NCBI GenBank assembly: GCA_020632155.1
Contig: JACKGE010000003.1
Coordinates: 1-53,681 of the forward strand
DNA: 53,681 bases
Direction: 5' to 3'
Source of the DNA: Candidatus Nomurabacteria bacterium
Lineage (GTDB): Bacteria; Patescibacteriota; Minisyncoccia; Phycocordibacterales; UBA918
Both the position numbers and the translations under genes were made by a program. Positions 29 to 50,352 of the stretch are shown piece after piece. The notes below the pieces were generated by a model. It was not told the DNA's origin. It worked only from the letters and a program-made list of their open reading frames with translations, and did no database searches. Position 1 is the stretch's first letter; each line of letters opens with the position of its first letter.

Positions 29-790
29 ATGTACAGGAAGAACGCTGAAAAGCTTCTTTTGCGAGTAAAAGAGGCTGATCAAATATTAACCGAACTTAAA
101 GTAGTTTTTGAGAATATCAACAAACAACACCGGTCTGGAGGGGGTCATCTTGAATATGCATACCTGGAACATTTTTTAGGTGAAGCCGAAGATGTTTCAT
201 ATCTATTCCAAATTCTTTTTAATGATCAGAGAACTCAAAAATTTTTGCCGATTGCTAACAGAATGTTATTTGAGGTCATTCTAAAAAGTGAGCATTTAAT
301 AAAACTCAAAAACACCGGCAGCGATAATGAAATTCTGAGTCTATTATCTAAAGACATGGCTTCAGCAATGTCCGCACTTGATGATGCGGTTGGATCTGCC
401 GAAGGAAATCCAGCAGCTGATACCTTGGTTAAAATACACTTAGTCAATAAAATTTTAGGAACAGATTTTGATCTAAGTAAAATCAAATCGAATACTCCGA
501 CCTTTCCAAAAATTAAGGACCTTTGTGATAAAAGTAGTATTTGCATTAAAGATTACTGTGCTGATAAGCTCTACCATTTTTATGTTCAGTGGAGCTGGAA
601 TAATCATTCAAGACTAGGAAATGACTTTTCACTTGAAAAAAATTCTGACTATTTGTTAAACAATCAAGCGGAGTGCTTTATTGAAATGTATCTAAAAAAC
701 ATAAAATTACTGTCTAAGCACGCAAATGCTTTAGGTTGTGAGGAAAAAGTAACGGAAATAATGAAACAGATAGGTATTCAGAATATCTAA
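29..790 (+). CDS. AT-rich hypothetical protein, possibly DUF5677/HEPN-like helical family
   Basis: 253-aa ORF, visibly AT-rich. It has NRMLFEVILK and FYVQWSWNNH segments resembling the R..LE and Y..S...H pattern of DUF5677-like proteins (by eye). Confidence 0.55.
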   Translation: MYRKNAEKLLLRVKEADQILTELKVVFENINKQHRSGGGHLEYAYLEHFLGEAEDVSYLFQILFNDQRTQKFLPIANRMLFEVILKSEHLIKLKNTGSDNEILSLLSKDMASAMSALDDAVGSAEGNPAADTLVKIHLVNKILGTDFDLSKIKSNTPTFPKIKDLCDKSSICIKDYCADKLYHFYVQWSWNNHSRLGNDFSLEKNSDYLLNNQAECFIEMYLKNIKLLSKHANALGCEEKVTEIMKQIGIQNI

Positions 791-828
791 ACAACAAAAC
801 CACCCAATTGGGTGGTTTTGTTGTTTAG
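787..828. terminator. Perfect 42-bp palindrome overlapping the stop codon; probable bidirectional terminator
   Basis: ctaaacaacaaaaccacccaa followed by its exact reverse complement ttgggtggttttgttgtttag. Confidence 0.75.
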
Positions 829-962
829 AAGTTGACGAGCCTTCTCGAGTGCTCGAACCAGCTCTCTAATTGGTGACCCATTAACGTGGCTTTCAGAACT
901 GTATAGGGGGCGGAAATATATTAAATCGAGCATACAAATACTCACACCACAAACCTCTCAAT

Positions 963-996
963 AAGAAAGGGCCGCACCACAGAAGTGATACAGCCC
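963..996 (-). terminator. Intrinsic terminator of the 1021-1431 gene
   Basis: Minus strand gggctgtatcac-ttct-gtggtgcggccc (12-bp stem, 3 G-U pairs), then tttctt. Confidence 0.7.
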
Positions 997-1020
997 GTGA
1001 AGTCGAACTTGTCGTTGCTG

Positions 1021-1431
1021 TCAGCGATAGCCGCTCATCACAGCCATCGCCAGCAGTTCGCCGAGACCGCCCATCTCGCCTTCGTCTTTCTTGTTCTTGA
1101 AGCCGACGACCTGCCAGCCCTCGCAGAGCTTGACCCCGTCGTATTCGTTGCCGTCGGACGGAACGTGCTGCCGGAGGGAGTCGAAGAAGATGGCGTGGAT
1201 GGCGGCGTGCCGCTTATTCGCCTCATGGTAACGGCGCGCCGCTTCCACCGACTCGTTGCCGACCTCGTCGACCAGGTTGTAGAGATGGCGCAGATGCTCG
1301 GGAACCTCACCAATGACCGTATCTTCGTCGGGCTTGAACTGCCCGAGGGCTGATGGCCTCGGCTCGGAGGAGCGCTGCATCGCTTCGACGATACGCTGGG
1401 CGATGTCGAGTTCTTTGGTGTTGTCCGTCAT
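1021..1431 (-). CDS. Hypothetical protein, 136 aa, start MTDNTKE
   Basis: GC-rich ORF. SD agaggag precedes the ATG at 1431, with a promoter upstream and a terminator downstream. The longer ORF-track start is not supported. Confidence 0.75.
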   Translation of the reverse strand: MTDNTKELDIAQRIVEAMQRSSEPRPSALGQFKPDEDTVIGEVPEHLRHLYNLVDEVGNESVEAARRYHEANKRHAAIHAIFFDSLRQHVPSDGNEYDGVKLCEGWQVVGFKNKKDEGEMGGLGELLAMAVMSGYR

Positions 1432-1487
1432 TGGATGTCTCCTCTGTGTTGACGGTGGATAGAACGGGTGAACAAAATACGCACAAA

Positions 1488-1515
1488 ATATTAGCACACA
1501 ATAGATATTTGTCAA
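1488..1515 (-). promoter_or_regulatory. Sigma70-type promoter of the 1431 gene
   Basis: Minus strand TTGACA-N16-TAATAT with a TG extended -10 (tgc-taatat). Confidence 0.65.
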
Positions 1516-1646
1516 GCTCTTGTGTAAGCTATTAACCCTTACAATAAGCCATTTCAAAGGCACTCCTTTTGATGAATATGAAACTGTAGTTCTGATCACT
1601 CTATGTGGCATCCTAAAATATAAAGCAGTATAAAGTATTTTACGAT

Positions 1647-1663
1647 GTGACCCTACGGGGAAT
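1647..1663 (-). repeat. 17-bp direct copy of the tRNA-Glu 3' end (att-like)
   Basis: gtgaccctacggggaat is identical to 2010-2026. A further partial copy, caagtctcctacgggga, is at 1786-1802. Confidence 0.85.
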
Positions 1664-1820
1664 AATCTTGACGGTCACAAAGTCATTTTGTTTCGTTACC
1701 TCACAAAATAACAAGTGCCGCGGGACACAGCTCACTTGTTCGCAAGCTCACATCGTTCCGCTGGTTCGATTCCCACGCAAGTGCCCAAGTCTCCTACGGG
1801 GACCGCTTCGCTTATCTCTC

Positions 1821-2010
1821 CTTACAGGAGCAGTACACCTTTTGGGTATTTTAGTTCGTTTCTCTCCTAAAATTCCACAAAAGCTTTTCGATTCCCACGT
1901 AAACAGTCTCCCAGACTGTTTACTTGTAGGGTCACTTGATGCACGCTTACGCGCGCCGTACCAAAAAGCATTGGTTTAAAATAAACCAATGCTTTTTGGT
2001 ACTTGTCAAG
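1821..2010. repeat. tRNA-trailer element: constant scaffold, split inverted copy of the tRNA 3' end, and terminator hairpin
   Basis: ttcgattccc (1887-1896) and gtagggtcacttga (1926-1939) are reverse complements of 2021-2030 and 2006-2019. They are separated by hairpin gtaaacagtct-ccc-agactgtttac. A 21-bp-arm hairpin lies at 1958-2002. Block 1821-1922 is homologous to 50127-50226. Confidence 0.8.
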
Positions 2011-2082
2011 TGACCCTACGGGGAATCGAACCCCGGTTTCGCGCGTGAGAGGCGCGTGTCCTAGCCGCTAGACGATAGGGCC
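2011..2082 (-). tRNA. tRNA-Glu (anticodon CTC)
   Basis: Acceptor GGCCCTA/TAGGGTC, anticodon arm cgcgc-CTCTCAC-gcgcg, T-loop GGTTCGATTCC. CCA is not encoded. Confidence 0.95.
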
Positions 2083-2123
2083 AAATTTGTAATTCCTGCA
2101 AAACGCAGTGCTCCAAATCCTAC

Positions 2124-2144
2124 CAAAAAAATCCAAAACTGCAA
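2124..2144 (-). repeat. 21-bp direct repeat, copy 1 (-35 and spacer of the tRNA-Glu promoter)
   Basis: caaaaaaatccaaaactgcaa is identical to 2515-2535. Minus strand reads TTGCAG-N16-TAGGAT. Confidence 0.85.
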
Positions 2145-2148
2145 CGTA

Positions 2149-2174
2149 AAAACCGGCAGTCCCCTGCCGGTTTT
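2149..2174. terminator. Intrinsic terminator downstream of usg
   Basis: aaaaccggcag-tccc-ctgccggtttt. Confidence 0.8.
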
Positions 2175-2197
2175 GTGTGCGTTGCTTTAAGGCGCAT

Positions 2198-2464
2198 TCA
2201 GTTCAGCCGAAACTCACCTTCAAACGCTCGCCACTCAGACGGCGAAATGAGTTTCTTGTGAACGAATCGCACGCTGTGTAGCGGGCCGTCCAACTCCCGC
2301 TCCCAGAAATCGAGAAAACCGTACAGCACCGGAAACTTCGGCGCAATGTCGTACTCCTGCCAAACGTAGGTCTGGAGCAGTTTCGGATAATCTGGCAGGC
2401 GATAGATGATTTCGGCTGTCGTAAGGCCATAGCCCTTAAGCTGTAGTTCTAACTCAGATGGCAT
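2198..2464 (-). CDS. usg: Usg family protein, 88 aa
   Basis: MPSELELQLKGYGLTTAEIIYRLPDYPKLLQTYVWQEYDIAPKFP...FWERELDGPLHSV is the characteristic Usg sequence. SD gagggag precedes the ATG at 2464. Confidence 0.9.
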   Translation of the reverse strand: MPSELELQLKGYGLTTAEIIYRLPDYPKLLQTYVWQEYDIAPKFPVLYGFLDFWERELDGPLHSVRFVHKKLISPSEWRAFEGEFRLN

Positions 2465-2514
2465 TTTGTGTTCTCCCTCGACTGTTGCAAAGGCCAAGCC
2501 AATATCTAACGTAT

Positions 2515-2535
2515 CAAAAAAATCCAAAACTGCAA
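2515..2535 (-). repeat. 21-bp direct repeat, copy 2 (-35 region of the usg promoter)
   Basis: Exact copy of 2124-2144. Confidence 0.85.
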
Positions 2536-2712
2536 TAAATAAATTAACCCCTTGGCTGCCGAAGCAACCAAGGGGGTGTGGAACAGTGTCCGTATAGGAC
2601 GTGATCAGCGGCAGGACCGCGTCACCTTCTATGCTATCGCACTTCCAGTGACTGTCAAGACGGAGGGTGGGTGGCGGGGCCCCAAGAGGCCCCGCCAACG
2701 GCAATGCGCGGC

Positions 2713-2904
2713 CTAGACCTCACACCACCGCGTCCCACCTTTGAATTCCCCACACTGCGCTCTTTTGGGTGACGGCGAACCGCCTCCTTCGAGAACCTCG
2801 CATTCAAGATCGCCATTTGGTAAGGGGTTGCAGACGAGCTGCCTCCCCTCCTCATGACTACCTGTCATAACGAGTAACGCACATGCGAGTGCTGTCTTGA
2901 TCAT
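2713..2904 (-). CDS. Small putative secreted protein with 4 Cys in the mature part, 63 aa
   Basis: Signal-like N-terminus MIKTALACALLVMTGS, SD aaagga, and a canonical upstream promoter. Confidence 0.6.
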   Translation of the reverse strand: MIKTALACALLVMTGSHEEGRQLVCNPLPNGDLECEVLEGGGSPSPKRAQCGEFKGGTRWCEV

Positions 2905-2959
2905 TTTTGGTCCTTTCTTTGATCACACCGCGCTGGTTCCACGCAGACACGGCTCATAG

Positions 2960-2988
2960 AAAATACCACAAAAATAGAGAATCGTCAA
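2960..2988 (-). promoter_or_regulatory. Sigma70-type promoter of the 2904 gene
   Basis: Minus strand TTGACG-N17-TATTTT with TGG extension. Confidence 0.65.
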
Positions 2989-2995
2989 AAACAAC

Positions 2996-3018
2996 AGCCG
3001 GACGCGGAGCGTCCGGCT
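2996..3018. terminator. Intrinsic terminator after the 3042-3764 gene
   Basis: agccggacgc-gga-gcgtccggct with A-rich and T-rich flanks. Confidence 0.75.
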
Positions 3019-3041
3019 TTTGTTTTTGGTGTGCTTGGAGT

Positions 3042-3764
3042 TTAGTTGTCTGTCTCGAAGTCCTCTACCCCACCACAGGCAATGACTGGGTCGTCGTCAT
3101 CGTCATCGTACTCAACACAGATCTGGAAATAAATGTCAGTGTTGTCATCAAGGCCATAGATCTGCGCGTAGTAATTTGAATCGCCATCAAGGTCACTATC
3201 AACGACGATCTTCTGCAGGTCATCACCGTCTTCGTCAATGTCGCGATACTCATCGTAATCATCTTCGATGTCAGCCACCTGATCCTCGTCTTCACCGTAG
3301 ACAAAGAATACGTAGCCGTTGCGGTAGTCGTTCATGTCGACTTCACCGCGAAGTTCAGCGCTATGGTCGTCGATATCACGAGCAGAGTTGGTTTGCACAT
3401 CCGGCTCATCATCATTTCTATTTCTGTCATTATTTGAGCGCGCACGACCCACCACTATCACTTCGTCGTCATAGTGATTGCTGTATGGGTACTGGTATTG
3501 ATACTGGTACTGAGTACCTGGGTAGGTGTAGTAGTACACTGGTTGCTGCTGACGCTGCTCTTTGAGCTGATCTTGCAGCTGCGCTACCAAGCGGTACAGA
3601 TAGTTAAGGTAATCAACCTGTGACTGCACATTAGCTTGATTTTGATATTGGTAGGTTGGGTACGTGTAGGTAGTTGGGTATACGTACGTGTAGGCCAAAG
3701 ACTCTGCTGGCATAAGCATGACCGCGAGCAATAGTCCAAGGAACAAAGTAGTTACTTTTTTCAT
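3042..3764 (-). CDS. Secreted Tyr/Gln-rich protein with an acidic C-terminal beta-sandwich (FN3-like) domain
   Basis: Signal peptide MKKVTTLFLGLLLAVMLMPAESLA, YTY/YQY low complexity, and C-terminal VQTNSARDI...AELRGEV...YFQICVEY typical of CPR surface proteins. Confidence 0.7.
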   Translation of the reverse strand: MKKVTTLFLGLLLAVMLMPAESLAYTYVYPTTYTYPTYQYQNQANVQSQVDYLNYLYRLVAQLQDQLKEQRQQQPVYYYTYPGTQYQYQYQYPYSNHYDDEVIVVGRARSNNDRNRNDDEPDVQTNSARDIDDHSAELRGEVDMNDYRNGYVFFVYGEDEDQVADIEDDYDEYRDIDEDGDDLQKIVVDSDLDGDSNYYAQIYGLDDNTDIYFQICVEYDDDDDDPVIACGGVEDFETDN

Positions 3765-3859
3765 GGTATTTCTAGTTATATCTAACAAAGTAGCTCCCCA
3801 CAGAGCTGGTACCCCAAAAATACGCTTTATAGAGAGAAAATGCAACCCCGCACGTAAAT

Positions 3860-5152
3860 CTAAGCCTTATTTAGCCACACACTGCTTTGTCGAACAAGGA
3901 GTGCCTCTGCCTGCTCTGGATGGGCCATAATGTCAGCCACAATGCGCTCACAGCGTATACCCTGTGAACCTTTTACCAAGATAACGTCCCCTTTTTTGAT
4001 GTAGTTTTGGAGTTCCCTCCCTGCTGAGACCGCGTCATCGTATTGGAAAATGCGTTTTTCGTTCATACCGGCTTCGAGCGCCCCTTCAGCTATTTTGCGC
4101 GCGCGAACCCCGACCGTAAAGAGGACATCAGCGGTTTCGGCCGCTTGTTCACCCAATTTCTCGTGTTCGCGGACAGAGAATTGTCCAAGTTCGAGCATAT
4201 CACCCAGTACCGCAATGCGGCTACCGCCAGTTTTGAGCTCTAGTAATGTGGAAAGTGCACGTTCAGCGGCAGTCGGTGACGAATTATACGTATCATCAAT
4301 AATGACCGTGTCCTTGAGCCCTGCAACAATGCGCATACGACCAGCTGGCGGCACATACCCTGCCATAGATTTTGCCACCTCAGCCAAATTGATATCAAAT
4401 ATCGATGCCACCGCAAAAGCAGCTCCAACACTATACAAGTGGTGCGTGCCTACTACATTCGGCAAATGAACACTGACCGATTCTTCCAAGTGTTCGATAT
4501 TAAATGAGATGCCGGTCGGCACTTTTCCGTCATATACAATCGTGTCACCCTGTGCGGTAAAGTGAGTTGGGGCGTAGCGAGCAAAGCCAATAGCTTTTTG
4601 CCGAACTGTTTCAACCACTTCTCGCACCTTTTCATCGTCATTGTTGTAGACCAGAACACCTTCGGGCTTGAGGGCCGCAACAAGTTCTAGCTTCTCTGCA
4701 ATGACGTCCTCCGGTGAGGCAAAGTACTCCACGTGGACCGGTACATTGGGAAGACGAGTAAGCACTACTACATCGGGCCTCAGCCAACTGGTGAGCTGTT
4801 TCATGTCCCCCGGACGGTCAACACCCACCTCAAGCACCAGCAGCTCTGGGTAATTCCCCGGCCAGAGGGTAAGCAAAAAGCCGTCAAAAATATTCTTAAG
4901 CCACTTAAACGGATTATTCCACCCGTTTTCAAGGCCAAGGATGGAAAGGGGTACGCCAATTTCTGAGTTAAAGCTTTTTTCACTCTTACGGGCTCGTTTG
5001 TGGTCTTTAAGGGCGGCGAAGACCGCGTCTTTGGTAGAAGTTTTCCCAACGTTTCCGGTAACAGCAACGATGGTCGGTTTGGTTCTGGCAAGCAGTAACT
5101 TAGCTTCAGCCGTGATAATGCGCACGACCAGCTGTTTCATGATGACTTTCAT
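3860..5152 (-). CDS. murF: UDP-N-acetylmuramoyl-tripeptide--D-Ala-D-Ala ligase
   Basis: AVTGNVGKTSTK P-loop, SFNSEIGVP, IDDTYNSSP, VLGDMLELG, VKGSQG. Confidence 0.95.
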   Translation of the reverse strand: MKVIMKQLVVRIITAEAKLLLARTKPTIVAVTGNVGKTSTKDAVFAALKDHKRARKSEKSFNSEIGVPLSILGLENGWNNPFKWLKNIFDGFLLTLWPGNYPELLVLEVGVDRPGDMKQLTSWLRPDVVVLTRLPNVPVHVEYFASPEDVIAEKLELVAALKPEGVLVYNNDDEKVREVVETVRQKAIGFARYAPTHFTAQGDTIVYDGKVPTGISFNIEHLEESVSVHLPNVVGTHHLYSVGAAFAVASIFDINLAEVAKSMAGYVPPAGRMRIVAGLKDTVIIDDTYNSSPTAAERALSTLLELKTGGSRIAVLGDMLELGQFSVREHEKLGEQAAETADVLFTVGVRARKIAEGALEAGMNEKRIFQYDDAVSAGRELQNYIKKGDVILVKGSQGIRCERIVADIMAHPEQAEALLVRQSSVWLNKA

Positions 5153-5184
5153 ACTCTCGATTATACCCCATTACCCTGCTCAGA

Positions 5185-6903
5185 TTATCGGTCGGGCGGA
5201 ACACTGTAGTAATTGATAAGGAATTTAGCAATTTCCATAAATGGGTCAGTTAAGGTCTCAGAAGCGTAGCTTACATTCTTCGGCTCGACGGTATAGAGAA
5301 ATACTAGATACTCAGGATCATAAGCAGGAAAATAGCCAAAGAATGAGTGCAGGTAGCGGTCGTCGTAATACCCACCGTTTACCTGATCGGCTATCTGCGC
5401 CGTACCGGTCTTGGCAGCAATGGTGTAATCTGGCAGGGCTACGGTACCACCTTTAAGGGCGTCATCCACGACGGTCACTAACATACGGGATATCTCTTCA
5501 CTGGTGTCTTCACTAAAGACACGTGCCCCCTCCGGATAGTTAACCTCTTTACTCGTACCATCGGTGTAATTAATACTTTTAACGATATGCGGTGTAATAA
5601 GCACCCCTCCGTTACCAAGGGTTGAAAGTGCGCGCACCGCTGCAATTGGCGTAAGGGCTATACCCTGCCCAAACGAGGCAGTCGCGTATTCTACATCACG
5701 CGGCGAATTGAGGTTTTGCACCAGACCATGGGTTTCGTTTGGAAGATCAATACCGGTCTCGCTACCAAGTTTGAGATTTAAGAAGTAGTCTCGGAAACGC
5801 TTTTTGCCCATAGTGTCCACCACGAAGGCCACACCAGTGTTGAGAGATTGGTTAAGCACCTCTTGCATTGGCACGGTACCGCGACCGCGACCATCGTAGT
5901 TACTGATGGTGAAGGTATCGAGTTCGATGCGTCCAGGGTCGTAGTATGTTGTCCAGCGGCCCACTGCCCCACTATCGAGGCCAGAGGCCATGGTAAGCGC
6001 CTTAATGATAGAGCCAAGTTCATACACATCTTCAATGAGGGGGTTTTGGAAATCTTGAATGCTGGCGCCACCACGGTCGTTAAGATCAAAGGTTGGCACT
6101 GCGTCGAGGGCATAAATTTCTCCATTCTTTGGATTGATAATAATGCCGCCGGTCAGTTCACTCTGATACTGATCATTAACACTCAACAGTTCATTTTGGA
6201 GCATGCGAGCTACAGTAGGCTCGATGGTAGTCACAATGTCTCCGCGACGCTGCGGCGTGCTGTCAAAAACCATGCTGCCAAAATTACTAAACATCTCCGC
6301 AAAGAAATTAACAGACAGACGCTCTTGCGTGCGTTGCAGGACATCATCGTAATACCGCTCGAGACCGTAGCGACCTGATAACACGTCGTCCCCATCACCT
6401 CCATAGCCGATAAAGCCGATGGTGCGAGCCGCTAGAGTACCTCCCGGATAGTACCGCCACTGATTGCGGTAGAGATGCACACCAGTGATGTCGAGTGCTT
6501 CGATTGCTTTTGCATTGTCACCGGAGACCATGCTGTCTATTTCCACGTACGTGCGCTCTGGTAGCGTGGCGCGATGTATAAAGGTTTCGTGATCAAGGTC
6601 TATGTACGCCGCCAGAGCAGAGTAGGCACTTTCTGCATCTGTAAGTTCAGACGGATCTACTGCTAGCAAAAAACCTGCTTGGATAGTGGCAGCAGACACT
6701 TCCTGACCATCTTTGGTAGTAAAAAAGATGCTGCCGCGGTCATAGAGGTCTTCAACCGTATGCACATACTGTTTTTCCGCTTTGGCTAGATACGTTTCTT
6801 TTTGTAGTATCTGAAGTTGATACAGGCGCCCAACTAAAAGCAGCGCCAAAAAAAGCACGAAGCCGGTTAATATTCGTATTCGGAGCACCGCAGTTTTACG
6901 CAT
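5185..6903 (-). CDS. ftsI: Class B penicillin-binding protein (FtsI/PBP3-like)
   Basis: N-terminal TM, RGSIF, YELGSIIK (SxxK), QSLNTG, AKTGTAQ; position in the dcw cluster. Confidence 0.9.
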   Translation of the reverse strand: MRKTAVLRIRILTGFVLFLALLLVGRLYQLQILQKETYLAKAEKQYVHTVEDLYDRGSIFFTTKDGQEVSAATIQAGFLLAVDPSELTDAESAYSALAAYIDLDHETFIHRATLPERTYVEIDSMVSGDNAKAIEALDITGVHLYRNQWRYYPGGTLAARTIGFIGYGGDGDDVLSGRYGLERYYDDVLQRTQERLSVNFFAEMFSNFGSMVFDSTPQRRGDIVTTIEPTVARMLQNELLSVNDQYQSELTGGIIINPKNGEIYALDAVPTFDLNDRGGASIQDFQNPLIEDVYELGSIIKALTMASGLDSGAVGRWTTYYDPGRIELDTFTISNYDGRGRGTVPMQEVLNQSLNTGVAFVVDTMGKKRFRDYFLNLKLGSETGIDLPNETHGLVQNLNSPRDVEYATASFGQGIALTPIAAVRALSTLGNGGVLITPHIVKSINYTDGTSKEVNYPEGARVFSEDTSEEISRMLVTVVDDALKGGTVALPDYTIAAKTGTAQIADQVNGGYYDDRYLHSFFGYFPAYDPEYLVFLYTVEPKNVSYASETLTDPFMEIAKFLINYYSVPPDR

Positions 6904-6905: not shown

Positions 6906-7241
6906 TCAGCGACCTATATTAGCACTGAGGGCGACACTGGCGGTAGTACGGTCGATGAAAATTTTGTGTTCTGACTCCACAAAACCATGTCGGGTGGCAA
7001 TCTCGTTACTGATAGCATGTTGCTTTTCAATAAAGACTGTTTCTAGCTGACTGATCTGCGTCTGCATATCTTGAATATCCTTGTTTGTCTCTTTTCGTAT
7101 GACCACGTGGGCCACAGATGCTGAAAGCAGGTAGACATAGAGTACAAACAGGACCAATACCACAAACAACGCTCCAAAGAGGTAGAGTTTCTCGCGTTGT
7201 ATCTTTTGTTGTATCGGGACGTTCATGTTAGCTCTTTTCAA
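6906..7241 (-). CDS. ftsL: FtsL-like cell division protein
   Basis: Single TM plus coiled coil, located between rsmH and the PBP gene. Confidence 0.65.
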   Translation of the reverse strand: MKRANMNVPIQQKIQREKLYLFGALFVVLVLFVLYVYLLSASVAHVVIRKETNKDIQDMQTQISQLETVFIEKQHAISNEIATRHGFVESEHKIFIDRTTASVALSANIGR

Positions 7242-8118
7242 TTACTCTCAGTTTGGCGCTACGTGCGCGGGGATTTTTGCGGAGCTCTGTTTCACCAGCC
7301 ACTATAGGTTTTTTGGTGATAAGTACTCCTTTGTGATCGTGTGCGAGGGTCTTAAATTCATGTTTGACAAGGCGATCTTCCAGACTATGGAATGAAATGA
7401 TCGCTAGTTTGCCGCCGGAAGAAAGAAGATCGAAACCATCCGTAAGTAAGGTCTTTAGAACGCCGAGTTCGTCATTCACAGCAATACGTAGTGCTTGAAA
7501 GGTTTTGGTCGCCGGATGTAGCTTGCTACGCTGACGTACCTTAGGCATCGCGCTGCTCACAATGTCAGCAAGCTGCTTGGCGGTGGTTATGCGAGCTAGT
7601 TCACGTGCCGTCACGATTGCGTTGGCAATGCGACGAGCGGCTCGCTCTTCGCCATATCCGTAGATGACATCAGCAATAGAACTTTCGTCCCAATCGTTCA
7701 CTATGTCAGTGGCTGTGAAAAGATAATCCTTAGGGTCACCATAGGTCATAGCGAGCGGTTCATCTGCAGCAAATGAAAACCCCTTGCCACCCGACTCAAA
7801 TTGGTCACTGCGCCAGCCAAGGTCAGCCAGTATTGCGGTCGGGGCTGGTATACCAAGTTTGGCAACCACACTGACGATGTCTTTAAAGTTGGCAGTCACA
7901 AAGTGAGTGTGCGCTGATACGGAGGCAAAATGCTCTTTAGCCGCTTCAACTGCTGACGCATCAGCGTCTATTCCGACATAGATGCCGTTTGTGCCCAGCT
8001 TTTGTAAGATCGTGTCTGCGTGTCCACCCGCTCCAAGCGTGCAGTCAATCACCACGCTGTCCTCCGTAAGGGAGAGCGCGTCTACTGCCTCTGCTTTGAG
8101 TACGGTTATATGACTCAT
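7228..8118 (-). CDS. rsmH: 16S rRNA m4C1402 methyltransferase
   Basis: HITVL, DCTLGAGGH, DLGWRSDQ, HPATKTFQALRIAVNDEL, SFHSLEDRLVK, NPRARSAKLR. Confidence 0.97.
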   Translation of the reverse strand: MSHITVLKAEAVDALSLTEDSVVIDCTLGAGGHADTILQKLGTNGIYVGIDADASAVEAAKEHFASVSAHTHFVTANFKDIVSVVAKLGIPAPTAILADLGWRSDQFESGGKGFSFAADEPLAMTYGDPKDYLFTATDIVNDWDESSIADVIYGYGEERAARRIANAIVTARELARITTAKQLADIVSSAMPKVRQRSKLHPATKTFQALRIAVNDELGVLKTLLTDGFDLLSSGGKLAIISFHSLEDRLVKHEFKTLAHDHKGVLITKKPIVAGETELRKNPRARSAKLRVIEKS

Positions 8119-44816: not shown

Positions 44817-47318
44817 TTATTCTTGACGCCTTCTCTGCCTCTCCAAACCTTCACGTATGTCATTTGGAAACTCCAGCCCTGCCGCTTCTTCTTTGCCTGC
44901 AAGAAATAGTTCTAAAAAGACTTCCTCGGCTGTTCTCAATTGCATACCCCCAATATTGGAAAGGTATCTAATTAATTCACTCTCATGAGCCGGTTCCTCA
45001 TCGTCAAAGGGTTGTCGTATATCAGGAAAAACCCTCAGCCCTAGTTCAGCCATTTCATGATTAAATCTTTGTTGCCAAGCAGCTCTCAGGTATGCATCAG
45101 GCATTATTTTGAAAATATTGTGTCTGTAGATATGGATAGCAAGAATAAAACCTATAGCTGCGCGAGCATCAGGAATTGATTGAAAATATGTATTCCAAGC
45201 CGTCTCTACTACATTGCGTAATTCTTCGTTTGAATGGAGTTCGGAATATAAAATTGCGAAACCAGACAGTTCAAATAAGTTGACCAATGGCTCTGTTGAG
45301 TAAATAATTTTACTTTCCTCTTCTCCCCAAGCATCAATCTCATCCCGAGTTCTTTGTTGGTGGATAATAGACGCATTAAGTACTACCGGGAAAAGTCTCG
45401 CAAATCTTTCATGGTCATTGTCAGCGCAAGCCTCATAGCATTCCTCTATTCCAATTCGGAGTGCATGGCTGAAATAATCAGGCACCTCGTCCGTTGTAAC
45501 AAGTGTTTGAATTCGGGGAAGTAATAACACGAGAATCTCGGAAACAGTTTTTTCTTTACTGAGTGCCCAATCCAACTCTTCATCCATATTGAATTCTGGC
45601 CATGGTAGATCCAACAAAGTCTGATGTTCAGCGCATCTTTCCAATTCTGCACGAAATCGGTGTACCATACTTGTATATTTTTTTGTAAACTCCAACCATC
45701 TTTGTAAAAGTTGCACCGAATAACCATACTGTTCAAGTTCAATAAGCTTATTTACTGTTTTGTTGAAGTAACCTTGGTGTATGTTTTTAACAAACTCAAA
45801 GTACTCTTTGACTGCATATTGATGACGTTGTAATGAATAGGTTTTTTTGTACCACTCAGCTGTTATCAATTTACCTTCGATTTCAAACTCATTACTTAAC
45901 TCTGAAGCAAGAACCTCCATTCTTTCGATGGTTGCAATTGGGAAATCTGAAGTATAGACACTTTTTATCCCTTCTCGCCATTTAACTCTCTCAACTTTTC
46001 TCAAAAATATATTACCCGGTTCAGTATCTAAATATTTCGCAAACCCAAGTAAGAAAGACAGCGCTACCCTTCCTCTAGAGTCAACAAAAGCCATCTTTCC
46101 TTTAGTGACAGAATTTTGCTTATCTTTTTTAAGGCTTTCAAAAAAGTGCTCGTCAAGAATAAAGAAATCTTCAAATATCTTTTTTGCAGCTTCAACGTCG
46201 AGTCTTTCTCCGTAGAATTCTGGTATGGCAACTATTATTTCATGGTGACTATAGAGAACCTCAAAGTCTTCATTGTCAAAGTGGTTTTTAAGTAGAGCCA
46301 CAAACATTTTAGTTAATTGCTCTTCAAACCATGTGTGATTTATAACGGTTTTAGGGTTAATACTTGTTCCAGTTTCAATTGCTATGCGTTTCTCAATATC
46401 ATCAGCTAAAGCCCAGTTACCGTATTGATATTTAGTTTTAAACCAAAGACTTTTTGTTGGTATTCCTGACTTTAACCTTGAATACTCATAAAATAACCAA
46501 GCAAGGTAGCGCACTGCGACTCCAATTTCATGTGCGTTGAGTTTGACTTTATTTATACCGAAATCCAAGTATTTCTCCGCCAATTGAAAGGATTGCACTA
46601 CTTGTTGGCGGTGATAGTTTTGCAAAAAGTTTTTATTCCAAGAATTAGATGGAGGCCGAACACTTTTGACTGAGTCAGTTATCTTTTTTGTTATCCTTGG
46701 GAAGATTGTTGAAGGTTCTATGAAGTTATACACTTCACTGCTAACTTTCCAGAAGCGAAGAACAATATAGCTCACGCAAATTAACAGAAAAATCAAACTC
46801 GCTGGATGAGGTAGGTGACCAAGACTTTTGGCAACTAAAAGGTAGAGGGATAGAATGCCTGTAATCTCGATTGTTTTTACATATTGAACTCCATGTGGTG
46901 AAGTAAAAAAGTGATTTTTTACATCTTGGTCAGCATTTACGAGCAATGAACTGGCTATACTCGATATGGCAGTAAAATATAAACCAATGAAAACTCCAGC
47001 AATACTCGCAACTGCACCCAAAAAAGTATCGATTGCTTCACTTGAAATTGTTTCTGGGAGAGTAAATTGGTATACGAATATGTGGTAAGACTCTAGTACC
47101 GCAAAGATTACCACAGCATAGAGTGCCGAGAGTATGAAGCCTACCAAGGTAGAACGAAGTAGTCGAATGTCACTTTTTCGCTTGCGTTGCCTTTCATCTT
47201 CTAGGTGTGAATATTTCCAGAAAGCGAAATAAGGCACATTTAAAAACCAATTCTTAAATTGCCAGTAAATTTTCCTTCGCTGCAACCAGCTAATCAGGTT
47301 CGCTTTCATCACGGCCAT
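44817..47318 (-). CDS. Large membrane protein, 833 aa, with 4 N-terminal TMs (DUF2254-like) and a long helical domain
   Basis: Four hydrophobic segments in the first ~190 aa; AT-rich; TGA-TAAAAT 7 nt before the ATG. Confidence 0.75.
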   Translation of the reverse strand: MAVMKANLISWLQRRKIYWQFKNWFLNVPYFAFWKYSHLEDERQRKRKSDIRLLRSTLVGFILSALYAVVIFAVLESYHIFVYQFTLPETISSEAIDTFLGAVASIAGVFIGLYFTAISSIASSLLVNADQDVKNHFFTSPHGVQYVKTIEITGILSLYLLVAKSLGHLPHPASLIFLLICVSYIVLRFWKVSSEVYNFIEPSTIFPRITKKITDSVKSVRPPSNSWNKNFLQNYHRQQVVQSFQLAEKYLDFGINKVKLNAHEIGVAVRYLAWLFYEYSRLKSGIPTKSLWFKTKYQYGNWALADDIEKRIAIETGTSINPKTVINHTWFEEQLTKMFVALLKNHFDNEDFEVLYSHHEIIVAIPEFYGERLDVEAAKKIFEDFFILDEHFFESLKKDKQNSVTKGKMAFVDSRGRVALSFLLGFAKYLDTEPGNIFLRKVERVKWREGIKSVYTSDFPIATIERMEVLASELSNEFEIEGKLITAEWYKKTYSLQRHQYAVKEYFEFVKNIHQGYFNKTVNKLIELEQYGYSVQLLQRWLEFTKKYTSMVHRFRAELERCAEHQTLLDLPWPEFNMDEELDWALSKEKTVSEILVLLLPRIQTLVTTDEVPDYFSHALRIGIEECYEACADNDHERFARLFPVVLNASIIHQQRTRDEIDAWGEEESKIIYSTEPLVNLFELSGFAILYSELHSNEELRNVVETAWNTYFQSIPDARAAIGFILAIHIYRHNIFKIMPDAYLRAAWQQRFNHEMAELGLRVFPDIRQPFDDEEPAHESELIRYLSNIGGMQLRTAEEVFLELFLAGKEEAAGLEFPNDIREGLERQRRRQE

Positions 47319-47357
47319 TAAAGCGATTTTATCATTTTAGAGCTAAATTGGCTCTTT

Positions 47358-47525
47358 AGGAAAAACAGAAAAATAGGTCAGACACCTTTGTTTTGAGGAA
47401 AATGTGTTCTAAATTTAGATCTTAGTGTTCACCCCCTGGGTTTAACCTTGGGATACGAGAATGTTCAAAATCCTATGAAATATAGAAAAGCCGCCACCCC
47501 GTTGTGAGACGAAGCTTTGGCTTTT
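47358..47525. repeat. Composite repeat A
   Basis: ggtcagacacctttgttttgaggaaaatgtgt..., degenerate ccctgggtttaaccttggg palindrome, tail aatgttcaaaat...gaaaagcc...ggctttt shared with B. Confidence 0.85.
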
Positions 47526-47606
47526 CATCTCACCGAAGTGGCGATTAGCGATAGCGACCCGTGTAGTAGCAACCACTGTTGCCGATGCACACGCCGTTCT
47601 TGTAGT

Positions 47607-47780
47607 GAGGAAAATAGGGTCAGACACCTTTGTTTTGTAAGGAAAATAGGGTCAGACACCTTTGTTTTGAGGAAAATGTGTCCTAATTTATATCTTGGTG
47701 TGTTCCGCTAGGTGGAAAATGTTCAAAATTCTATGAAATATAGAAAAGCCACCACCCCGTGAGACGAAGCTTTGGCTTTT
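47607..47780. repeat. Composite repeat B (core doubled)
   Basis: 29-bp ggaaaatagggtcagacacctttgttttg at 47609 and 47641; tail nearly identical to A. Confidence 0.85.
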
Positions 47781-47947
47781 TGAGATTATTGGTATATATA
47801 AAACTAGTTTAAGTGACTAGTGTTTACAAGCATTGAACCATTACGAGATATTTGACATTATAAAAAAATATCGTATCTTTTTTGATGACAGCTTGGATTG
47901 TTCGCACCAAGTGTCTGATGATGATGAGCGAACATAGGAGAAGTACC

Positions 47948-48427
47948 TTGGAAGATGCACGTCAACCCCGTCAGTATAAAATATCGGTCTGCACTCGTAA
48001 CAATTTGCTCGTACTGAAAAGCGAATCGCCACTACTTGCGCAATCCCGGGCTGAAACTTTCGACTTCCCGCTGAGAGAATCCTCCAACCACGCCTTATCC
48101 AACACGACGGATTTCGGCGCCAATTTGGTCAAGCGTATCTGGGAGAAAGTCTCTGGCGCAACGAACGTTCGGCTTCTGTTGTATGAGGCCACTGCCAATC
48201 TCGGGGGTTTCTATGAACCAAGAAAGACCTTGGAGCAGATGGAGGAGATCCTCAAAAGCATATGCAATGATGCTTGGTTGTCGCCGACGATCACAACCGA
48301 AACAATCCCCTTCCTCTCACATGAAACGACAAGAGCCGTTCCTTATACACACCCCTTCGGAAGGCTTCCGCTTCGACTCCACGAGCAGCGACAACGCGGT
48401 CGTAAAAGGCTCGTGCTTGTGAGGTAA
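47948..48427 (+). CDS. Hypothetical protein, about 159 aa (TTG start)
   Basis: SD aggag 7 nt before an in-frame TTG at 47948, TTGACA at 47852, hairpins after the stop. Confidence 0.55.
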   Translation: MEDARQPRQYKISVCTRNNLLVLKSESPLLAQSRAETFDFPLRESSNHALSNTTDFGANLVKRIWEKVSGATNVRLLLYEATANLGGFYEPRKTLEQMEEILKSICNDAWLSPTITTETIPFLSHETTRAVPYTHPFGRLPLRLHEQRQRGRKRLVLVR

Positions 48428-48532
48428 TCGCAACGAGTTCAGAGGGCGGCAAACCGGCCGCCCTCATCCGCCATGCAAAGACTGCGTGGCGGTTTTTGTT
48501 ACTCAAAATAATTGAAAAACAGGTTGAAAACA

Positions 48533-48648
48533 GGGTCAGACACCTTTGTTTTGAGGAAAATGTGTCCTAATTTAGATTTTAGTGTTCACCCCTAGGTTAA
48601 ACCTAGGGATTCGATACCAGATTTTGAGTTTATAAAACAAAACCGCCG
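48533..48648. repeat. Composite repeat C
   Basis: 48533-48618 is identical (86 bp) to 49235-49320 and contains palindrome ccctaggtt-a-aacctaggg. Confidence 0.9.
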
Positions 48649-48649
48649 C

Positions 48650-49087
48650 TCATTTTAGAGCAGCGGCAAGCTTCATCACGTACTTTCTTTTTTTGGGCGG
48701 GAGCCTGTTGATGCTGAGCGGGATATTCAGTAAACCTTGCATATGAACGAGTGAGGCGACCTGTTTGAGTATCCTGTCTTTGCAATAGGAGTCACAGGCT
48801 TCTTGAATCATCCTGATATCATCAAGGCTTGGCACGATGTACTTTTCTGGAAAAATGTACCTGCAGATCAATATCCACCGAGCGAGCTCGTATCCCGGTT
48901 CGAGCCCTAGTGTGCCTTTTCCTTCCCTGGCACACTGTAACCGATACAGAATCAGGTTTTTTTCGTCCGCCGTTAAGCAGTTGGGAACACCAATACCACG
49001 TAACAATAGGGCTGCTCGCGCCACCAAATAGATGTTGTTGTTTTTTCGACCCTCTTCTAGGAGGGCAAAGAGTTGTGACTCTTTCAT
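48650..49087 (-). CDS. Hypothetical protein, 145 aa
   Basis: SD AGGAGGT before ATG 49087; promoter CTGACA-N16-TATTGT (49115-49142). Confidence 0.7.
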   Translation of the reverse strand: MKESQLFALLEEGRKNNNIYLVARAALLLRGIGVPNCLTADEKNLILYRLQCAREGKGTLGLEPGYELARWILICRYIFPEKYIVPSLDDIRMIQEACDSYCKDRILKQVASLVHMQGLLNIPLSINRLPPKKRKYVMKLAAALK

Positions 49088-49199
49088 CTTCACCTCCTAG
49101 GTTAAACCGAGGACACAATACCATAAAAGTATATTCTGTCAGCTTTGCAGAAATATAATCAACAAGAATTACAATTCCCTATTTGAGCTGTTTATCCTT

Positions 49200-49360
49200 A
49201 AGGAAAATTGGGTCAGACACCTTTAAGGAAAATTGGGTCAGACACCTTTGTTTTGAGGAAAATGTGTCCTAATTTAGATTTTAGTGTTCACCCCTAGGTT
49301 AAACCTAGGGATTCGATACCGGAGTTTGATTTTGAGTTTATAAAATGAAAGACCGCCCGA
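49200..49360. repeat. Composite repeat D (core doubled)
   Basis: Exact 25-bp tandem aaggaaaattgggtcagacaccttt x2 (49200-49249), then 86-bp identity with C and shared attttgagtttataaaa...accgcc. Confidence 0.9.
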
Positions 49361-49381
49361 AGGCGATCCCTCATGGCGGTA

Positions 49382-49949: not shown

Positions 49950-50280
49950 GCTCCGGCGGCAGGAATTTCTTTCATTACATGAGCAGTATAGGTTTTCAAT
50001 ATTTCAAATCCAAGTATTCCTGAAATATTTGATTAACCTCCTAAAACAGTCCGTATGGACTGTTTTAGCCTGCGACCAATTGATTACGAGAATCATTTAT
50101 GCGCTCCGGCGGCAGAAATTTCGAAACTTACAGTTTCAGTACACCTTGTCAGTATTTTGTTTCCTTACGTTACAAAATACTAGGCAAGGTCTTCGAATCC
50201 TAACGAAACAGTCTCCCAGATTGTTTCTCCGGGGAGCTTATAACGCAAAAATGCCCTCATCGGGCATTTTTACTAACAAG
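49950..50280. repeat. tRNA-Asn trailer element with a split inverted 3'-end copy and two degenerate direct 3'-end copies
   Basis: ttcgaatccta (50192-50202) and ccggggagctt (50229-50239) flank hairpin aaacagtct-ccc-agattgttt. Direct copies gctccggcggca are at 50103 and 49950. Terminator at 50247-50271. Confidence 0.8.
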
Positions 50281-50352
50281 CTCCGCCGGTAGGATTCGAA
50301 CCTACGACCAATCGGTTAACAGCCGACTGCTCTACCGCTGAGCTACGGCGGA
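50281..50352 (-). tRNA. tRNA-Asn (anticodon GTT)
   Basis: TCCGCCG/CGGCGGA acceptor, gtcgg-CTGTTAA-ccgat, GGTTCGAATCC. CCA is not encoded. Confidence 0.96.

What the first reader, a model, noticed from the sequence alone, without database searches (positions are those of the whole stretch)
1821..2030. One non-coding scaffold behind two different tRNAs, with variable arms matched to each tRNA's own 3' end
Seen: 1821-1922 (behind tRNA-Glu) and 50127-50226 (behind tRNA-Asn, 48 kb away) are homologous: cttacag-nnn-cagtacacctt...gtatttt...aaaat...ttcga...aaacagtctcccaga(c/t)tgttt. In each locus the constant hairpin aaacagtct-ccc-aga(c/t)tgttt splits an inverted copy of that locus's tRNA 3' end at the T-stem/acceptor junction. 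At Glu the copy is ttcgattccc | gtagggtcacttga; at Asn it is ttcgaatccta | ccggggagctt. Both inserts start with acg. So the scaffold is constant while the arms track the neighbouring target. Inference: a non-autonomous element whose folded single strand rebuilds a duplex att site (compare CTX-phage attP or integron attC folding), or a guide-like RNA with target-matching segments around a fixed hairpin (loosely bridge-RNA-like). An antisense brake on pre-tRNA folding is an alternative.
Basis: partly seen in the sequence, partly recalled or inferred. Interest (0 to 1): 0.85.

Follow-up and report, generated by a model that had tools for sequence, protein, structure and literature searches.

The report
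Tiny structured elements inserted behind tRNAs
Both tRNA genes in this window are followed by copies of a small, protein-less, hairpin-rich DNA element whose arms copy the end of whichever tRNA it sits behind; the same element family occurs behind many different tRNAs in several bacterial phyla, looks like an undescribed miniature integrating element, and the enzyme that moves it is unknown.

Summary
Each window tRNA (Glu 2010-2082, Asn 50280-50352) is followed on the opposite strand by a ~120-nt scaffold. It has a small hairpin P1 with loop TTACA, then AGTAC, a long hairpin P2, and an invariant 21-nt hairpin that splits a sense copy of that tRNA's T-loop/T-stem and acceptor 3' strand. I also found a direct repeat of the tRNA's last ~17-21 nt at the far end of each element, a second decayed unit in tandem at each locus, and a bidirectional terminator between element and tRNA. 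A covariance model finds 90 copies in fetched loci. Forty-four lie within 200 nt behind a convergent tRNA of 17 anticodon types, and in about two thirds of the copies scored both arms match that tRNA. P1, P2 and the hairpin base covary strongly. G·T pairs are no commoner than A·C, which favours DNA over RNA pairing. No recombinase is linked. Best reading: a non-coding, non-autonomous integrative element whose foldback rebuilds the tRNA-end duplex as a structure-specific att site (attC/CTX-like logic). The guide-RNA reading is poorly supported. The 21-mer alone also sits inside ISL3, IS3 and IS5 transposase genes in other phyla, unexplained. No Rfam or literature match.

The parts
2010..2082 (-). 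tRNA-Glu(CTC). Its last 21 nt (2010-2030, positions 54-74) are the proximal copy of the repeated 'a' segment.
   Evidence: ARAGORN; Rfam 59.7 bits
1958..2002 (.). Perfect 21-bp hairpin (bidirectional terminator-like) between the element and tRNA-Glu. It forms the tip of the foldback.
   Evidence: Inverted repeat I1; fold
1926..1939 (+). Right arm a'R: sense copy of the tRNA-Glu acceptor 3' strand, discriminator and 4 nt of trailer (GTAGGGTCACTTGA).
   Evidence: 14/14 complementary to 2006-2019
1901..1921 (+). Constant hairpin HP, AAACAGTCTCCCAGACTGTTT. Closing pairs extend it to about 1897-1925.
   Evidence: 99.7% paired; closing pair covaries
1887..1896 (+). Left arm a'L: sense copy of the tRNA-Glu T-loop and T-stem 3' strand (TTCGATTCCC).
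   Evidence: 10/10 complementary to 2021-2030
1839..1883 (+). Hairpin P2 of the proximal (type A) unit.
   Evidence: Fold; covariation (12 of 13 pairs with compensatory changes)
1818..1830 (+). Hairpin P1 (CTCC TTACA GGAG), followed by the conserved AGTAC.
   Evidence: 5 of 5 pairs with compensatory changes, 98% paired
1791..1811 (+). Degenerate direct copy of the tRNA-Glu 3' end ('a' of the proximal unit; CCTACGGGGA at 1793-1802).
   Evidence: Direct repeat D1
1664..1790 (+). Distal, older unit with a different body (type B). It keeps a T-loop copy GGTTCGATTCCC at 1763-1774, and the hairpin is degraded at about 1778-1790.
   Evidence: Inverted repeat I5; compared by eye with L128/L139 type B sequences in the output
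1647..1663 (+). Distal direct repeat of the tRNA-Glu 3' end (17/17, GTGACCCTACGGGGAAT). This is the outer boundary of the array.
   Evidence: Direct repeat D2
50280..50352 (-). tRNA-Asn(GTT). Its 3' end is the proximal 'a' segment.
50247..50271 (.). Bidirectional terminator hairpin AAAAATGCCC / GGGCATTTTT.
   Evidence: Inverted repeat I9
50229..50239 (+). Right arm a'R (CCGGGGAGCTT): tRNA-Asn acceptor 3' strand with a 1-nt deletion, plus 2 nt of trailer.
   Evidence: (I4)
50206..50226 (+). Constant hairpin HP, AAACAGTCTCCCAGATTGTTT (one G·T pair).
50192..50202 (+). Left arm a'L (TTCGAATCCTA): tRNA-Asn T-loop and T-stem 3' strand.
   Evidence: Inverted repeat I3
50123..50190 (+). P1 (GAAAC TTACA GTTTC), AGTAC and P2 of the proximal unit.
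50103..50125 (+). Degenerate direct copy of the tRNA-Asn 3' end (GCTCCGGCGGCAGAAATTTCGAA).
   Evidence: (D1)
49950..50102 (+). Distal tandem unit. It has its own 'a' copy (49950-49970), a diverged P1/P2, a variant hairpin (50041-50068), and then an antisense fragment of tRNA-Asn positions ~53-35 (50069-50086).
   Evidence: Direct repeats D1 and D2 and inverted repeat I5; model hit 49958-50069, 54.5 bits

Best explanation
These are integrated copies of a family of miniature (~150-350 nt), non-coding, non-autonomous DNA elements that insert into the 3' end of tRNA genes at or near the T-loop.

Each element brings its own copy of tRNA positions ~54-74 plus a terminator, so the tRNA stays intact. 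The displaced original tRNA end remains as a direct repeat on the far side. Repeated insertions build tandem arrays, sometimes with cargo genes between copies.

Next to the tRNA the element carries an inverted copy of the same tRNA segment, split at the T-stem/acceptor junction by an invariant 21-nt hairpin. In a single strand or a cruciform, this copy pairs with the tRNA end and forms a three-way junction.

I infer that this foldback, together with hairpins P1 and P2, is a structure-specific recombination site used by a recombinase encoded elsewhere. The invariant hairpin would be the protein handle. The arms would supply identity with the target, in the manner of integron attC or CTX attP(+).

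Shown: the anatomy, the covariation, the tRNA linkage, arm matching in most copies, the arrays, and the absence of a linked protein. Inferred: mobility by site-specific recombination, a single-stranded or cruciform substrate, and the role of the hairpin. Unknown: the enzyme.
For: - Direct repeats of the last 17-22 nt of the tRNA lie 100-250 nt downstream of most of the tRNAs that carry an element.
- The repeat usually has its own terminator upstream, as expected for a displaced original tRNA end.
- Tandem units occur in the window and in L010, L093, L024 and L147. Cargo ORFs lie between near-identical units in L128, L152 and L165.
- Of 90 model hits, 44 lie within 200 nt behind a convergent tRNA of 17 anticodon types. 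Six more are in arrays and 13 are separated from a convergent tRNA by more than 600 nt, mostly one of the same amino-acid type.
- All 18 genome hits of the hairpin that lie within 300 nt behind a tRNA 3' end are on the opposite strand.
- Occupancy is patchy. Roughly half of the bystander tRNAs in the same loci carry an element. An empty tRNA-Ala(GGC) has a 3' end identical to filled copies.
- Arms match the cognate tRNA.
- Covariation: 86.6% of cells are paired, against 69.2% in shuffles (0 of 500 reach the observed value) and 33-44% in slid controls. Thirty-four of 47 pairs show compensatory changes.
- G·T 29 against A·C 30 outside one column, and nine compensatory changes in hairpin variants. 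This points to DNA-type pairing.
- Foldback energies have z -14.6 and -9.4.
Against: - No recombinase was found in the window's tested ORFs or next to any copy.
- No excised form was seen, and no orthologous empty/filled pair could be obtained.
- The strand that folds could not be assigned.
- The arms do not track the tRNA in every lineage: the L101/L103 genome and the weak right arm in Ser elements.
- The hairpin also occurs inside IS transposase genes without arms, so it may have a life of its own.
- A plain double-stranded T-loop integrase mechanism would explain the direct repeats without any folding.
Confidence: 0.5

Rival explanations
1. A structured non-coding RNA gene transcribed convergently with the tRNA and ending at the shared terminator. 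It could be a guide or bridge-like RNA for a trans-acting recombinase, or a regulator or decoy that pairs with the tRNA 3' end.
For: - The fold is a compact multi-helix one with conserved loops (TTACA, AGTAC, CCC) and strong covariation.
- 5' and 3' segments pair, and a terminator follows.
- One P2 position has T·G in 28 of 76 sequences.
- The Asn hairpin carries a G·T pair on the plus strand.
Against: - A terminator usually lies directly upstream of the 5' arm, and no conserved promoter is present.
- Outside one column, G·T (29) equals A·C (30).
- The arms are mutually complementary over the same target segment, unlike bridge-RNA guides.
- There is no Rfam match.
- No linked IS110, TnpB or Cas gene was found.
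Confidence: 0.15
2. Inert debris. These would be decaying att-site scars left by ordinary integrase-bearing islands that target tRNA T-loops, later colonised by an independent, promiscuous palindromic repeat (the 21-nt hairpin unit). The arms would match only because the hairpin landed in tRNA-derived sequence.
For: - The hairpin occurs on its own in ISL3, IS3 and IS5 genes and elsewhere.
- It sits at other tRNA positions (26/27 in L045/L053; next to position 53 in L058 and the window's distal Asn unit).
- Many copies are decayed.
Against: - The P1-P2-arm-hairpin combination is conserved, with compensatory changes, across elements at 17 tRNA anticodon types and several Patescibacteria lineages. 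Random scars would not keep this.
- The hairpin sits at the same 65/66 junction of the inverted copy in all type A copies.
- An inverted copy of the tRNA end is not a product of ordinary integration.
Confidence: 0.15
3. A cis-acting module of the tRNA gene itself. The downstream antisense copy would pair with the 3' half of read-through pre-tRNA and so control 3' processing, termination or degradation (the 'antisense brake').
For: - The inverted copy lies just past the terminator and pairs perfectly with the tRNA end.
- Occupancy is high, at roughly half of nearby tRNAs.
Against: - It would act only on terminator read-through.
- It does not explain the far-side direct repeats, tandem units, cargo genes, orphan copies kilobases from the tRNA, or the P1 and P2 hairpins.
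Confidence: 0.07

Closest known systems
Integron cassette attC sites
   Same: A structure-specific recombination site made of imperfect inverted repeats that fold in a single strand. The sequence is largely free and the shape is conserved. It is carried by small promoter-less units that accumulate in tandem next to one fixed site, with the integrase encoded elsewhere than in the cassette.
   Different: - There is no RYYYAAC/GTTRRRY core.
- The arms copy a tRNA end rather than being arbitrary.
- A large invariant hairpin stands in place of the extrahelical bases.
- The repeat at the boundary is 17-22 nt.
- The fixed site is a tRNA gene, not attI.
- No intI was seen.
CTX-phi attP(+) and other Xer-exploiting elements (IMEX)
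   Same: A single strand folds so that two inverted copies rebuild a duplex resembling the chromosomal target. After integration the order is target copy, loop, inverted copy, body, target copy, which is the order seen here.
   Different: The target is a tRNA 3' end, not dif. No XerC/XerD-type 11-6-11 site is present. The element is 150-350 nt and codes for nothing.
tRNA-targeting genomic islands and their non-autonomous derivatives (CIMEs, IMEs, tycheposon remnants)
   Same: Insertion into the tRNA 3' part with restoration of the gene. Direct repeats run from the T-loop to the 3' end. Units accrete in tandem, and cargo genes lie between att copies.
   Different: These elements have no integrase and are an order of magnitude smaller. 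They carry a conserved multi-hairpin scaffold and an inverted, hairpin-split copy of the target. The same scaffold serves many different tRNAs.
IS110/IS1111 bridge (seek) RNAs
   Same: A constant folded scaffold with exchangeable target-matching segments flanking a hairpin.
   Different: - No DEDD recombinase gene is adjacent.
- The arms are complementary to each other and cover the same target stretch on opposite strands.
- The pairing statistics look like DNA rather than RNA.
- Long direct repeats are produced.
REP/RAYT and IS200/IS605 palindrome-associated elements
   Same: Short conserved hairpins spread through genomes, including inside other mobile elements. Action on single-stranded DNA is plausible. 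Y1 transposase genes occur in four of the fetched loci (five with L169, which repeats L165).
   Different: Those Y1 genes are flanked by their own, different repeats. REPs are lineage-specific, whereas this 21-mer is identical across phyla. IS200/IS605 insertion makes no direct repeats.

Membership tests
Integron attC / cassette | Inverse core RYYYAAC and core GTTRRRY at the base of the folded site | tested here: not met
   Sequences flanking the hairpin and the foldback base (e.g. CACGTAAAC...GTTTACTTG) do not fit either consensus.
Integron attC / cassette | Imperfect inverted repeats that fold in one strand, with the shape conserved and the sequence free | tested here: met
   Foldback z -14.6 and -9.4. 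The arms differ between tRNAs but stay paired.
Integron attC / cassette | intI integrase and attI next to the array | tested here: not met
   No tyrosine recombinase in the tested window ORFs or locus ORFs. The rest of the genome was not searched.
CTX-type IMEX | dif-like XerC/XerD site and integration at dif | tested here: not met
   The target is a tRNA 3' end. No 11-6-11 dif-like site is visible in the foldback.
tRNA-integrating island / CIME | Element flanked by direct repeats of the tRNA 3' part, with the tRNA restored | tested here: met
   1647-1663 equals 2010-2026. The same holds at most of the element-bearing tRNAs.
tRNA-integrating island / CIME | Derived from, or mobilised by, an identifiable integrase-bearing relative with the same att sites | tested here: inconclusive
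   No integrase-bearing relative was found in 186 fetched loci or in viral contigs. Whole genomes were not searched.
IS110 bridge RNA | Encoded in the non-coding end of an element with a DEDD/Tnp recombinase gene | tested here: not met
   No shared neighbouring protein. Neighbouring ORFs have no Pfam hits of that kind.
IS110 bridge RNA | Two internal loops whose guides pair with different halves and strands of target and donor | tested here: not met
   The two arms are mutually complementary over the same 20-nt target segment.
MITE | Terminal inverted repeats and a short target-site duplication of fixed length | tested here: not met
   No terminal inverted repeats. The flanking repeat is 17-22 nt of tRNA sequence, and up to ~60 nt in L093 and L118.
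REP/RAYT or IS200/IS605 PATE | Cognate Y1 (HUH) transposase whose gene is flanked by the same hairpin | tested here: not met
   Y1_Tnp genes in L165, L169, L128, L024 and L104 are flanked by other repeats, not by this hairpin.
Any Rfam RNA family | Match at the gathering score | tested here: not met
   Only the tRNAs match.

The most novel reading that the evidence does not exclude
The scaffold may be the cis-acting half of a nucleic-acid-templated recombination system. A still unknown, widely distributed enzyme would recognise the invariant 21-nt hairpin, and perhaps the P1 loop. It would take its target specificity from the two exchangeable arms that flank the hairpin. On this reading, changing the arms retargets insertion from one tRNA to another, or in stripped-down form into other genes such as transposases. 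That would be a protein-plus-folded-DNA (or RNA) programmable integrase system distinct from integrons, Xer-exploiting elements, bridge RNAs and CRISPR-associated transposons.
Probability: 0.2. Interest if true: 0.92.

Novelty: new variant of a known kind. Interest (0 to 1): 0.8.

Why it matters
If the reading is right, this is a very small integrating element: about 150 nt of folded DNA with no gene. It occupies roughly half of the tRNA genes sampled near it in Patescibacteria, and it is also present in Clostridia and Alphaproteobacteria.

It would show that tRNA 3' ends in reduced genomes act as cassette-accumulating platforms without a local integrase.

It also points to a recognition hairpin that is conserved to the base across phyla and whose partner protein is unknown. 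Finding that protein could reveal a new structure-specific, and possibly retargetable, recombinase.

At the least, annotators should know two things. The ORFs called across these regions (1647-1979 and 49948-50292 in this window) are likely artefacts. The partial tRNA copies there are att-type repeats.

Tried and rejected
- **Known RNA family.** Rfam at gathering and at E ≤ 10 gave only the tRNAs.
- **tRNA-primed retro-copy.** The direct repeat ends at the tRNA 3' end but carries no CCA complement. Rejected.
- **Linked protein.** The two ORFs next to the elements (1021-1611 and 49382-49837) are unrelated and have no Pfam hit. Clustering all ORFs near 118 hairpin sites found no family shared among the tRNA-linked loci.
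- **RAYT/Y1 transposase as partner.** Y1 genes occur in five loci but are flanked by different repeats. Judged coincidental.
- **Phage origin.** The 21-mer gives four viral contigs, none of them tRNA-type.
- **Arms in IS contexts.** No target-matching arms surround the hairpin inside ISL3, IS3 or IS5 genes.
- **Strand assignment.** Wobble counts are inconclusive, with G·T about equal to A·C outside one column. GC skew shows only that the tRNA sense strand is the lagging-strand template.
- **Selection on the inverted arm versus the far repeat.** There is no clear difference, 17.7 against 16.6.
- **Orthologous empty sites.** Searches via Usg and RdgB homologues found no synteny. Only a non-orthologous empty tRNA-Ala(GGC) was found.
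- **A conserved junction sequence in L128 and L024.** AGTAGTGAGAATTGGAACC looked like the end of a second element. It is more likely an old, diverged tRNA 3' portion, and it has no viral hit.
- **Literature.** There was no hit for the sequence or the concept.

Full report
**1. What is in the window**

ARAGORN and Rfam find two tRNA genes, both on the minus strand: tRNA-Glu(CTC) at 2010-2082 and tRNA-Asn(GTT) at 50280-50352.

The motif CTTACAGNNNCAGTACACCTT and the hairpin AAACAGTCTCCCAGAYTGTTT each occur exactly twice in 53.7 kb, at these two places. Shuffles give 0.02 and 0.00 expected. The two regions align from CTTACAG to the end of the hairpin.

The hairpin splits a sense copy of the neighbouring tRNA's 3' part.
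- At Glu, 1887-1896 and 1926-1939 are perfect complements of 2021-2030 and 2006-2019.
- At Asn, 50192-50205 is 93% complementary to 50287-50300. The right arm CCGGGGAGCTT matches the acceptor strand with one deleted base.

**2.

- *A direct repeat of the tRNA end bounds the far side.* 1647-1663 is identical to 2010-2026 (17/17). Weaker copies lie at 1791-1811, 50103-50125 and 49950-49970.
- *Each locus holds two tandem units.* At Asn the 153-nt spacing is plain (D1), and the distal unit scores 54.5 bits with the family model. At Glu the distal unit (1664-1790) has a different body, also seen in other loci, and its hairpin has decayed.
- *'cttacag-nnn-cag' is a small hairpin, P1.* Its loop is TTACA, and it is followed by AGTAC and a long bulged hairpin, P2.
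- *A bidirectional terminator-like hairpin lies between element and tRNA* (1958-2002 and 50247-50271).

Folded as one strand, the inverted arm, the terminator and the tRNA end form a three-way junction with the constant hairpin at the branch point. The energies are -59.1 kcal/mol (z -14.6) at Glu and -33.9 kcal/mol (z -9.4) at Asn.

**3. The family elsewhere**

The hits fall into two classes.

*Class 1: behind tRNAs.* These come from many Patescibacteria lineages (Paceibacteria, Minisyncoccia, Nomurabacteria, Kaiserbacteria, Parcubacteria, Saccharibacteria), from four Clostridia MAGs, and from one Rhodospirillaceae MAG. In all 18 cases where the hairpin lies within 300 nt behind a tRNA 3' end, the tRNA is on the opposite strand. 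Three more hairpins lie 108-286 nt from a tRNA 5' end, with the tRNA again on the opposite strand.

A metagenome scan for the hairpin preceded by a T-loop-like motif gave 54 more instances.

From 38 distinct copies I built an alignment (A2/A3) and a covariance model. The model finds 90 copies at E < 1e-6 in the fetched loci. Their positions break down as follows:

| Position of the copy | Copies |
|---|---|
| Within 200 nt behind a convergent tRNA | 44 |
| 201-600 nt from a convergent tRNA (tandem arrays) | 6 |
| More than 600 nt from a convergent tRNA, mostly of the same amino-acid type, with ORFs in between | 13 |
| Within 250 nt of a contig end | 6 |
| No convergent tRNA called in the locus | 21 |

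The 44 adjacent tRNAs span 17 anticodon types. Of the 11 'orphan' copies I read, several show a truncated tRNA end after the terminator.

Copies that were not selected through the exact hairpin also sit behind tRNAs: L103 Gly, Pro and Arg; L079 Arg and Ser; L012 Cys; L086 Ser; L036 Gln; L061 Ser. About half of the bystander tRNAs in those loci carry an element.

**4. Do the arms track the tRNA?**

Mostly yes. For Glu(CTC, TTC), Ala(GGC), Tyr, Gln, Asn and Leu the left arm equals the T-loop plus the T-stem 3' strand. The right arm equals the acceptor 3' strand, the discriminator and 2-4 trailer bases of the tRNA next door.
- Of 32 copies scored, 21 have a good or fair right arm.
- Ser elements match weakly on the right.
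- In one Patescibacteria genome (L101/L103) the three elements behind Pro, Arg and Gly share a constant right flank, CTGCCCAAATAA.

The claim therefore holds for the bulk of the family but not universally.

**5. Structure**

RNAalifold and explicit pair counts support the fold.

| Helix | Cells paired | Pairs with compensatory changes |
|---|---|---|
| P1 | 98% | 5 of 5 |
| P2 | 93% | 12 of 13 |
| Constant hairpin (HP) | 99.7% | closing pair only; 8 of 10 pairs never vary |
| 5' repeat with the two arms | 64-94% | 16 of 19 |

Overall, 86.6% of cells are paired. Shuffles give 69.2% (0 of 500 reach the observed value), and slid controls give 33-44%.

Variants of the 21-mer show nine Watson-Crick compensations.

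Over 81 distinct copies there are 1929 Watson-Crick cells, 57 G·T and 30 A·C. Twenty-eight of the G·T cells sit in one P2 column, so elsewhere G·T (29) equals A·C (30). RNA families normally tolerate G·U far better than A·C. This symmetry suggests selection on DNA pairing in either strand or in a cruciform, but it is not proof.

**6. DNA element or RNA gene?**

Several features are the classic anatomy of integration into a tRNA 3' end:
- the far-side direct repeat, which usually has its own terminator just upstream;
- the tandem arrays;
- cargo ORFs between two 90%-identical copies in L165;
- a 152-aa ORF between two Glu units in L128, and two ORFs between units in L152.

The repeat boundary falls at tRNA position 53/54, the T-loop edge. 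This holds both in the common type and in a mirror-image type that duplicates the tRNA 5' part (L058 and the window's distal Asn unit).

The repeat carries no CCA complement, so it is not a copy of mature tRNA.

A terminator upstream of the 5' arm leaves no room for a promoter, and no conserved promoter was found. This weakens the RNA-gene model.

An empty tRNA-Ala(GGC) with a 3' end identical to filled copies exists (L181; against L173). I could not obtain an orthologous empty/filled pair, because relatives found through Usg and RdgB are not syntenic.

**7. Who moves it?**

This is unknown.
- The ORFs beside the window's elements are unrelated to each other and have no Pfam hit.
- Twenty further window ORFs are housekeeping genes or have no Pfam match, and none is a recombinase.
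- Clustering ORFs around all 118 genome hits found no family shared by the tRNA-linked loci.
- Cargo ORFs are mostly unknown.
- Y1 (IS200-like, RAYT-type) genes lie in five loci, but each is flanked by its own different repeats.
- Viral contigs hold only four hits, none of the tRNA type.

**8. The hairpin on its own**

The identical 21-mer, with 2-4 covarying closing pairs, also sits in several other contexts:
- inside ISL3 transposase genes of mitis-group streptococci, where it is part of a ~50-nt insert relative to an intact copy;
- inside IS3-family genes of Psychrobacter and Rhodobacterales, and in an IS5-family gene of Paracoccus;
- in Leptospira and in betaproteobacterial contigs.

There are no target-matching arms in these contexts. 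The hairpin is therefore a portable module with an unknown, apparently very widespread partner. This is the main unexplained fact.

**9. Interpretation**

The best-supported reading (about 0.5) is a miniature, non-coding, non-autonomous integrative element. Its foldback rebuilds the tRNA-end duplex as a structure-specific att site. The invariant hairpin would be the protein handle, and the arms would provide identity with the target.

The integrated order is target copy, loop, inverted copy, body, target copy. This is the order a CTX-type single-strand integration produces. The tandem, gene-less or cargo-bearing units next to one fixed site recall integron cassettes.

The element is not a member of either family. 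The attC core motifs, a dif-like site, intI and Xer features are all absent.

How the arms change target is not known. Quasi-palindrome correction by template switching between the inverted arm and the adjacent tRNA end is a plausible passive route (inference).

The rivals are:
- a structured RNA (0.15);
- inert att scars colonised by an independent hairpin repeat (0.15);
- a cis-acting pre-tRNA module (0.07).

**10. Comparison with the literature**

I found no paper holding the sequence or describing tRNA-linked hairpin elements of this kind. Absence from this library is not proof of novelty.

**11. Taxon**

The Usg-like gene beside tRNA-Glu is 80-83% identical to Hyphomicrobiales proteins. 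That indicates either recent transfer or a chimeric contig.

Noticed in passing
L002, L035, L120 and about 60 other Streptococcus loci; intact copy at L059 4944-5100: The same 21-nt hairpin lies inside ISL3-family transposase genes of mitis-group streptococci, as part of a ~50-nt insert that breaks the frame. About 240 nt upstream, a second hairpin-like stretch (GAAACAGTCCGGGTAGTGACTGTTTC) replaces 25 nt of the intact gene.
   Followed up: partly
L004, L027, L063, L073, L076 (Psychrobacter); L018, L020, L047, L054 (Rhodobacterales, Paracoccus, Gemmobacter): The hairpin, with lineage-specific ~10-30-nt flanks, sits inside IS3-family genes (orfA or the orfA/orfB junction) and an IS5-family gene. 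The same flanks (CGTCGGGR...YCTGATCCTCCTC) appear in different IS families, so a ~45-nt unit seems to move on its own.
   Followed up: partly
window 2198-2464 (-): The Usg-like gene (PF06233), 116 nt upstream of tRNA-Glu, is 80-83% identical to Usg of Hyphomicrobiales (Nitratireductor, Aquamicrobium, Mesorhizobium). The window's RdgB has Patescibacteria relatives. This is either recent cross-phylum transfer or a chimeric contig.
   Followed up: partly
L165 5199-5867, L169 2056-2724, L128 5684-6349, L024 2915-3379, L104 5110-5538: RAYT-like Y1 (IS200-like) transposase genes lie in tRNA-linked islets of Patescibacteria. Each is flanked by its own short repeats (e.g. GGGACAGGGACAAT in L165), which differ from the hairpin studied here.
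   Followed up: partly
L128 (locus coordinates) 7206-7866; L152, read on the hairpin's strand (reverse complement of the locus) 1500-3550; L165 about 260-5950: Protein-coding cargo lies between tandem copies of the element behind one tRNA. Most of it has unknown function; one ORF is an APH-like kinase and one is a Y1 transposase. In L165 two 90%-identical copies bracket about 5.7 kb. The arrangement resembles a cassette array at a tRNA.
   Followed up: partly
L045 6348-6610; L053 4880-5130: Behind tRNA-Thr(TGT) lies a second, decayed tRNA-Thr copy that carries the hairpin between the D and anticodon arms (position 26/27) and a ~60-nt insert in the T-loop. The hairpin is intact while the pseudo-tRNA around it has decayed.
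   Followed up: no
Alignment A2 columns 120-140; e.g. L127, L124, L155: The tip of P2 often reads TTTCGCTTCGCTCA. Its complement contains GCGAAGC, which from my own knowledge is an unusually stable DNA mini-hairpin. Related TTCGCTNCGCT motifs recur in the other body types and next to the hairpin in Leptospira and Psychrobacter.
   Followed up: no
window 1647-1979 (+) and 49948-50292 (+): Mechanical ORFs of 110 and 114 aa run straight through the two element arrays. They are almost certainly not genes.
   Followed up: no
window 45001-50000: GC drops to 41.5% here, against 47-51% elsewhere. The two ORFs next to the Asn array (48650-49093 and 49382-49837, both on the minus strand) have no Pfam match. 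This may be an acquired islet at the outer end of the array.
   Followed up: no
L060 7100-7250; L121 10250-10400; L123 9800-9950: In Polaromonas and two viral-collection contigs the hairpin is embedded in a different ~130-nt structured unit closed by GCCCATG/CATGGGC. It is not next to a tRNA.
   Followed up: no
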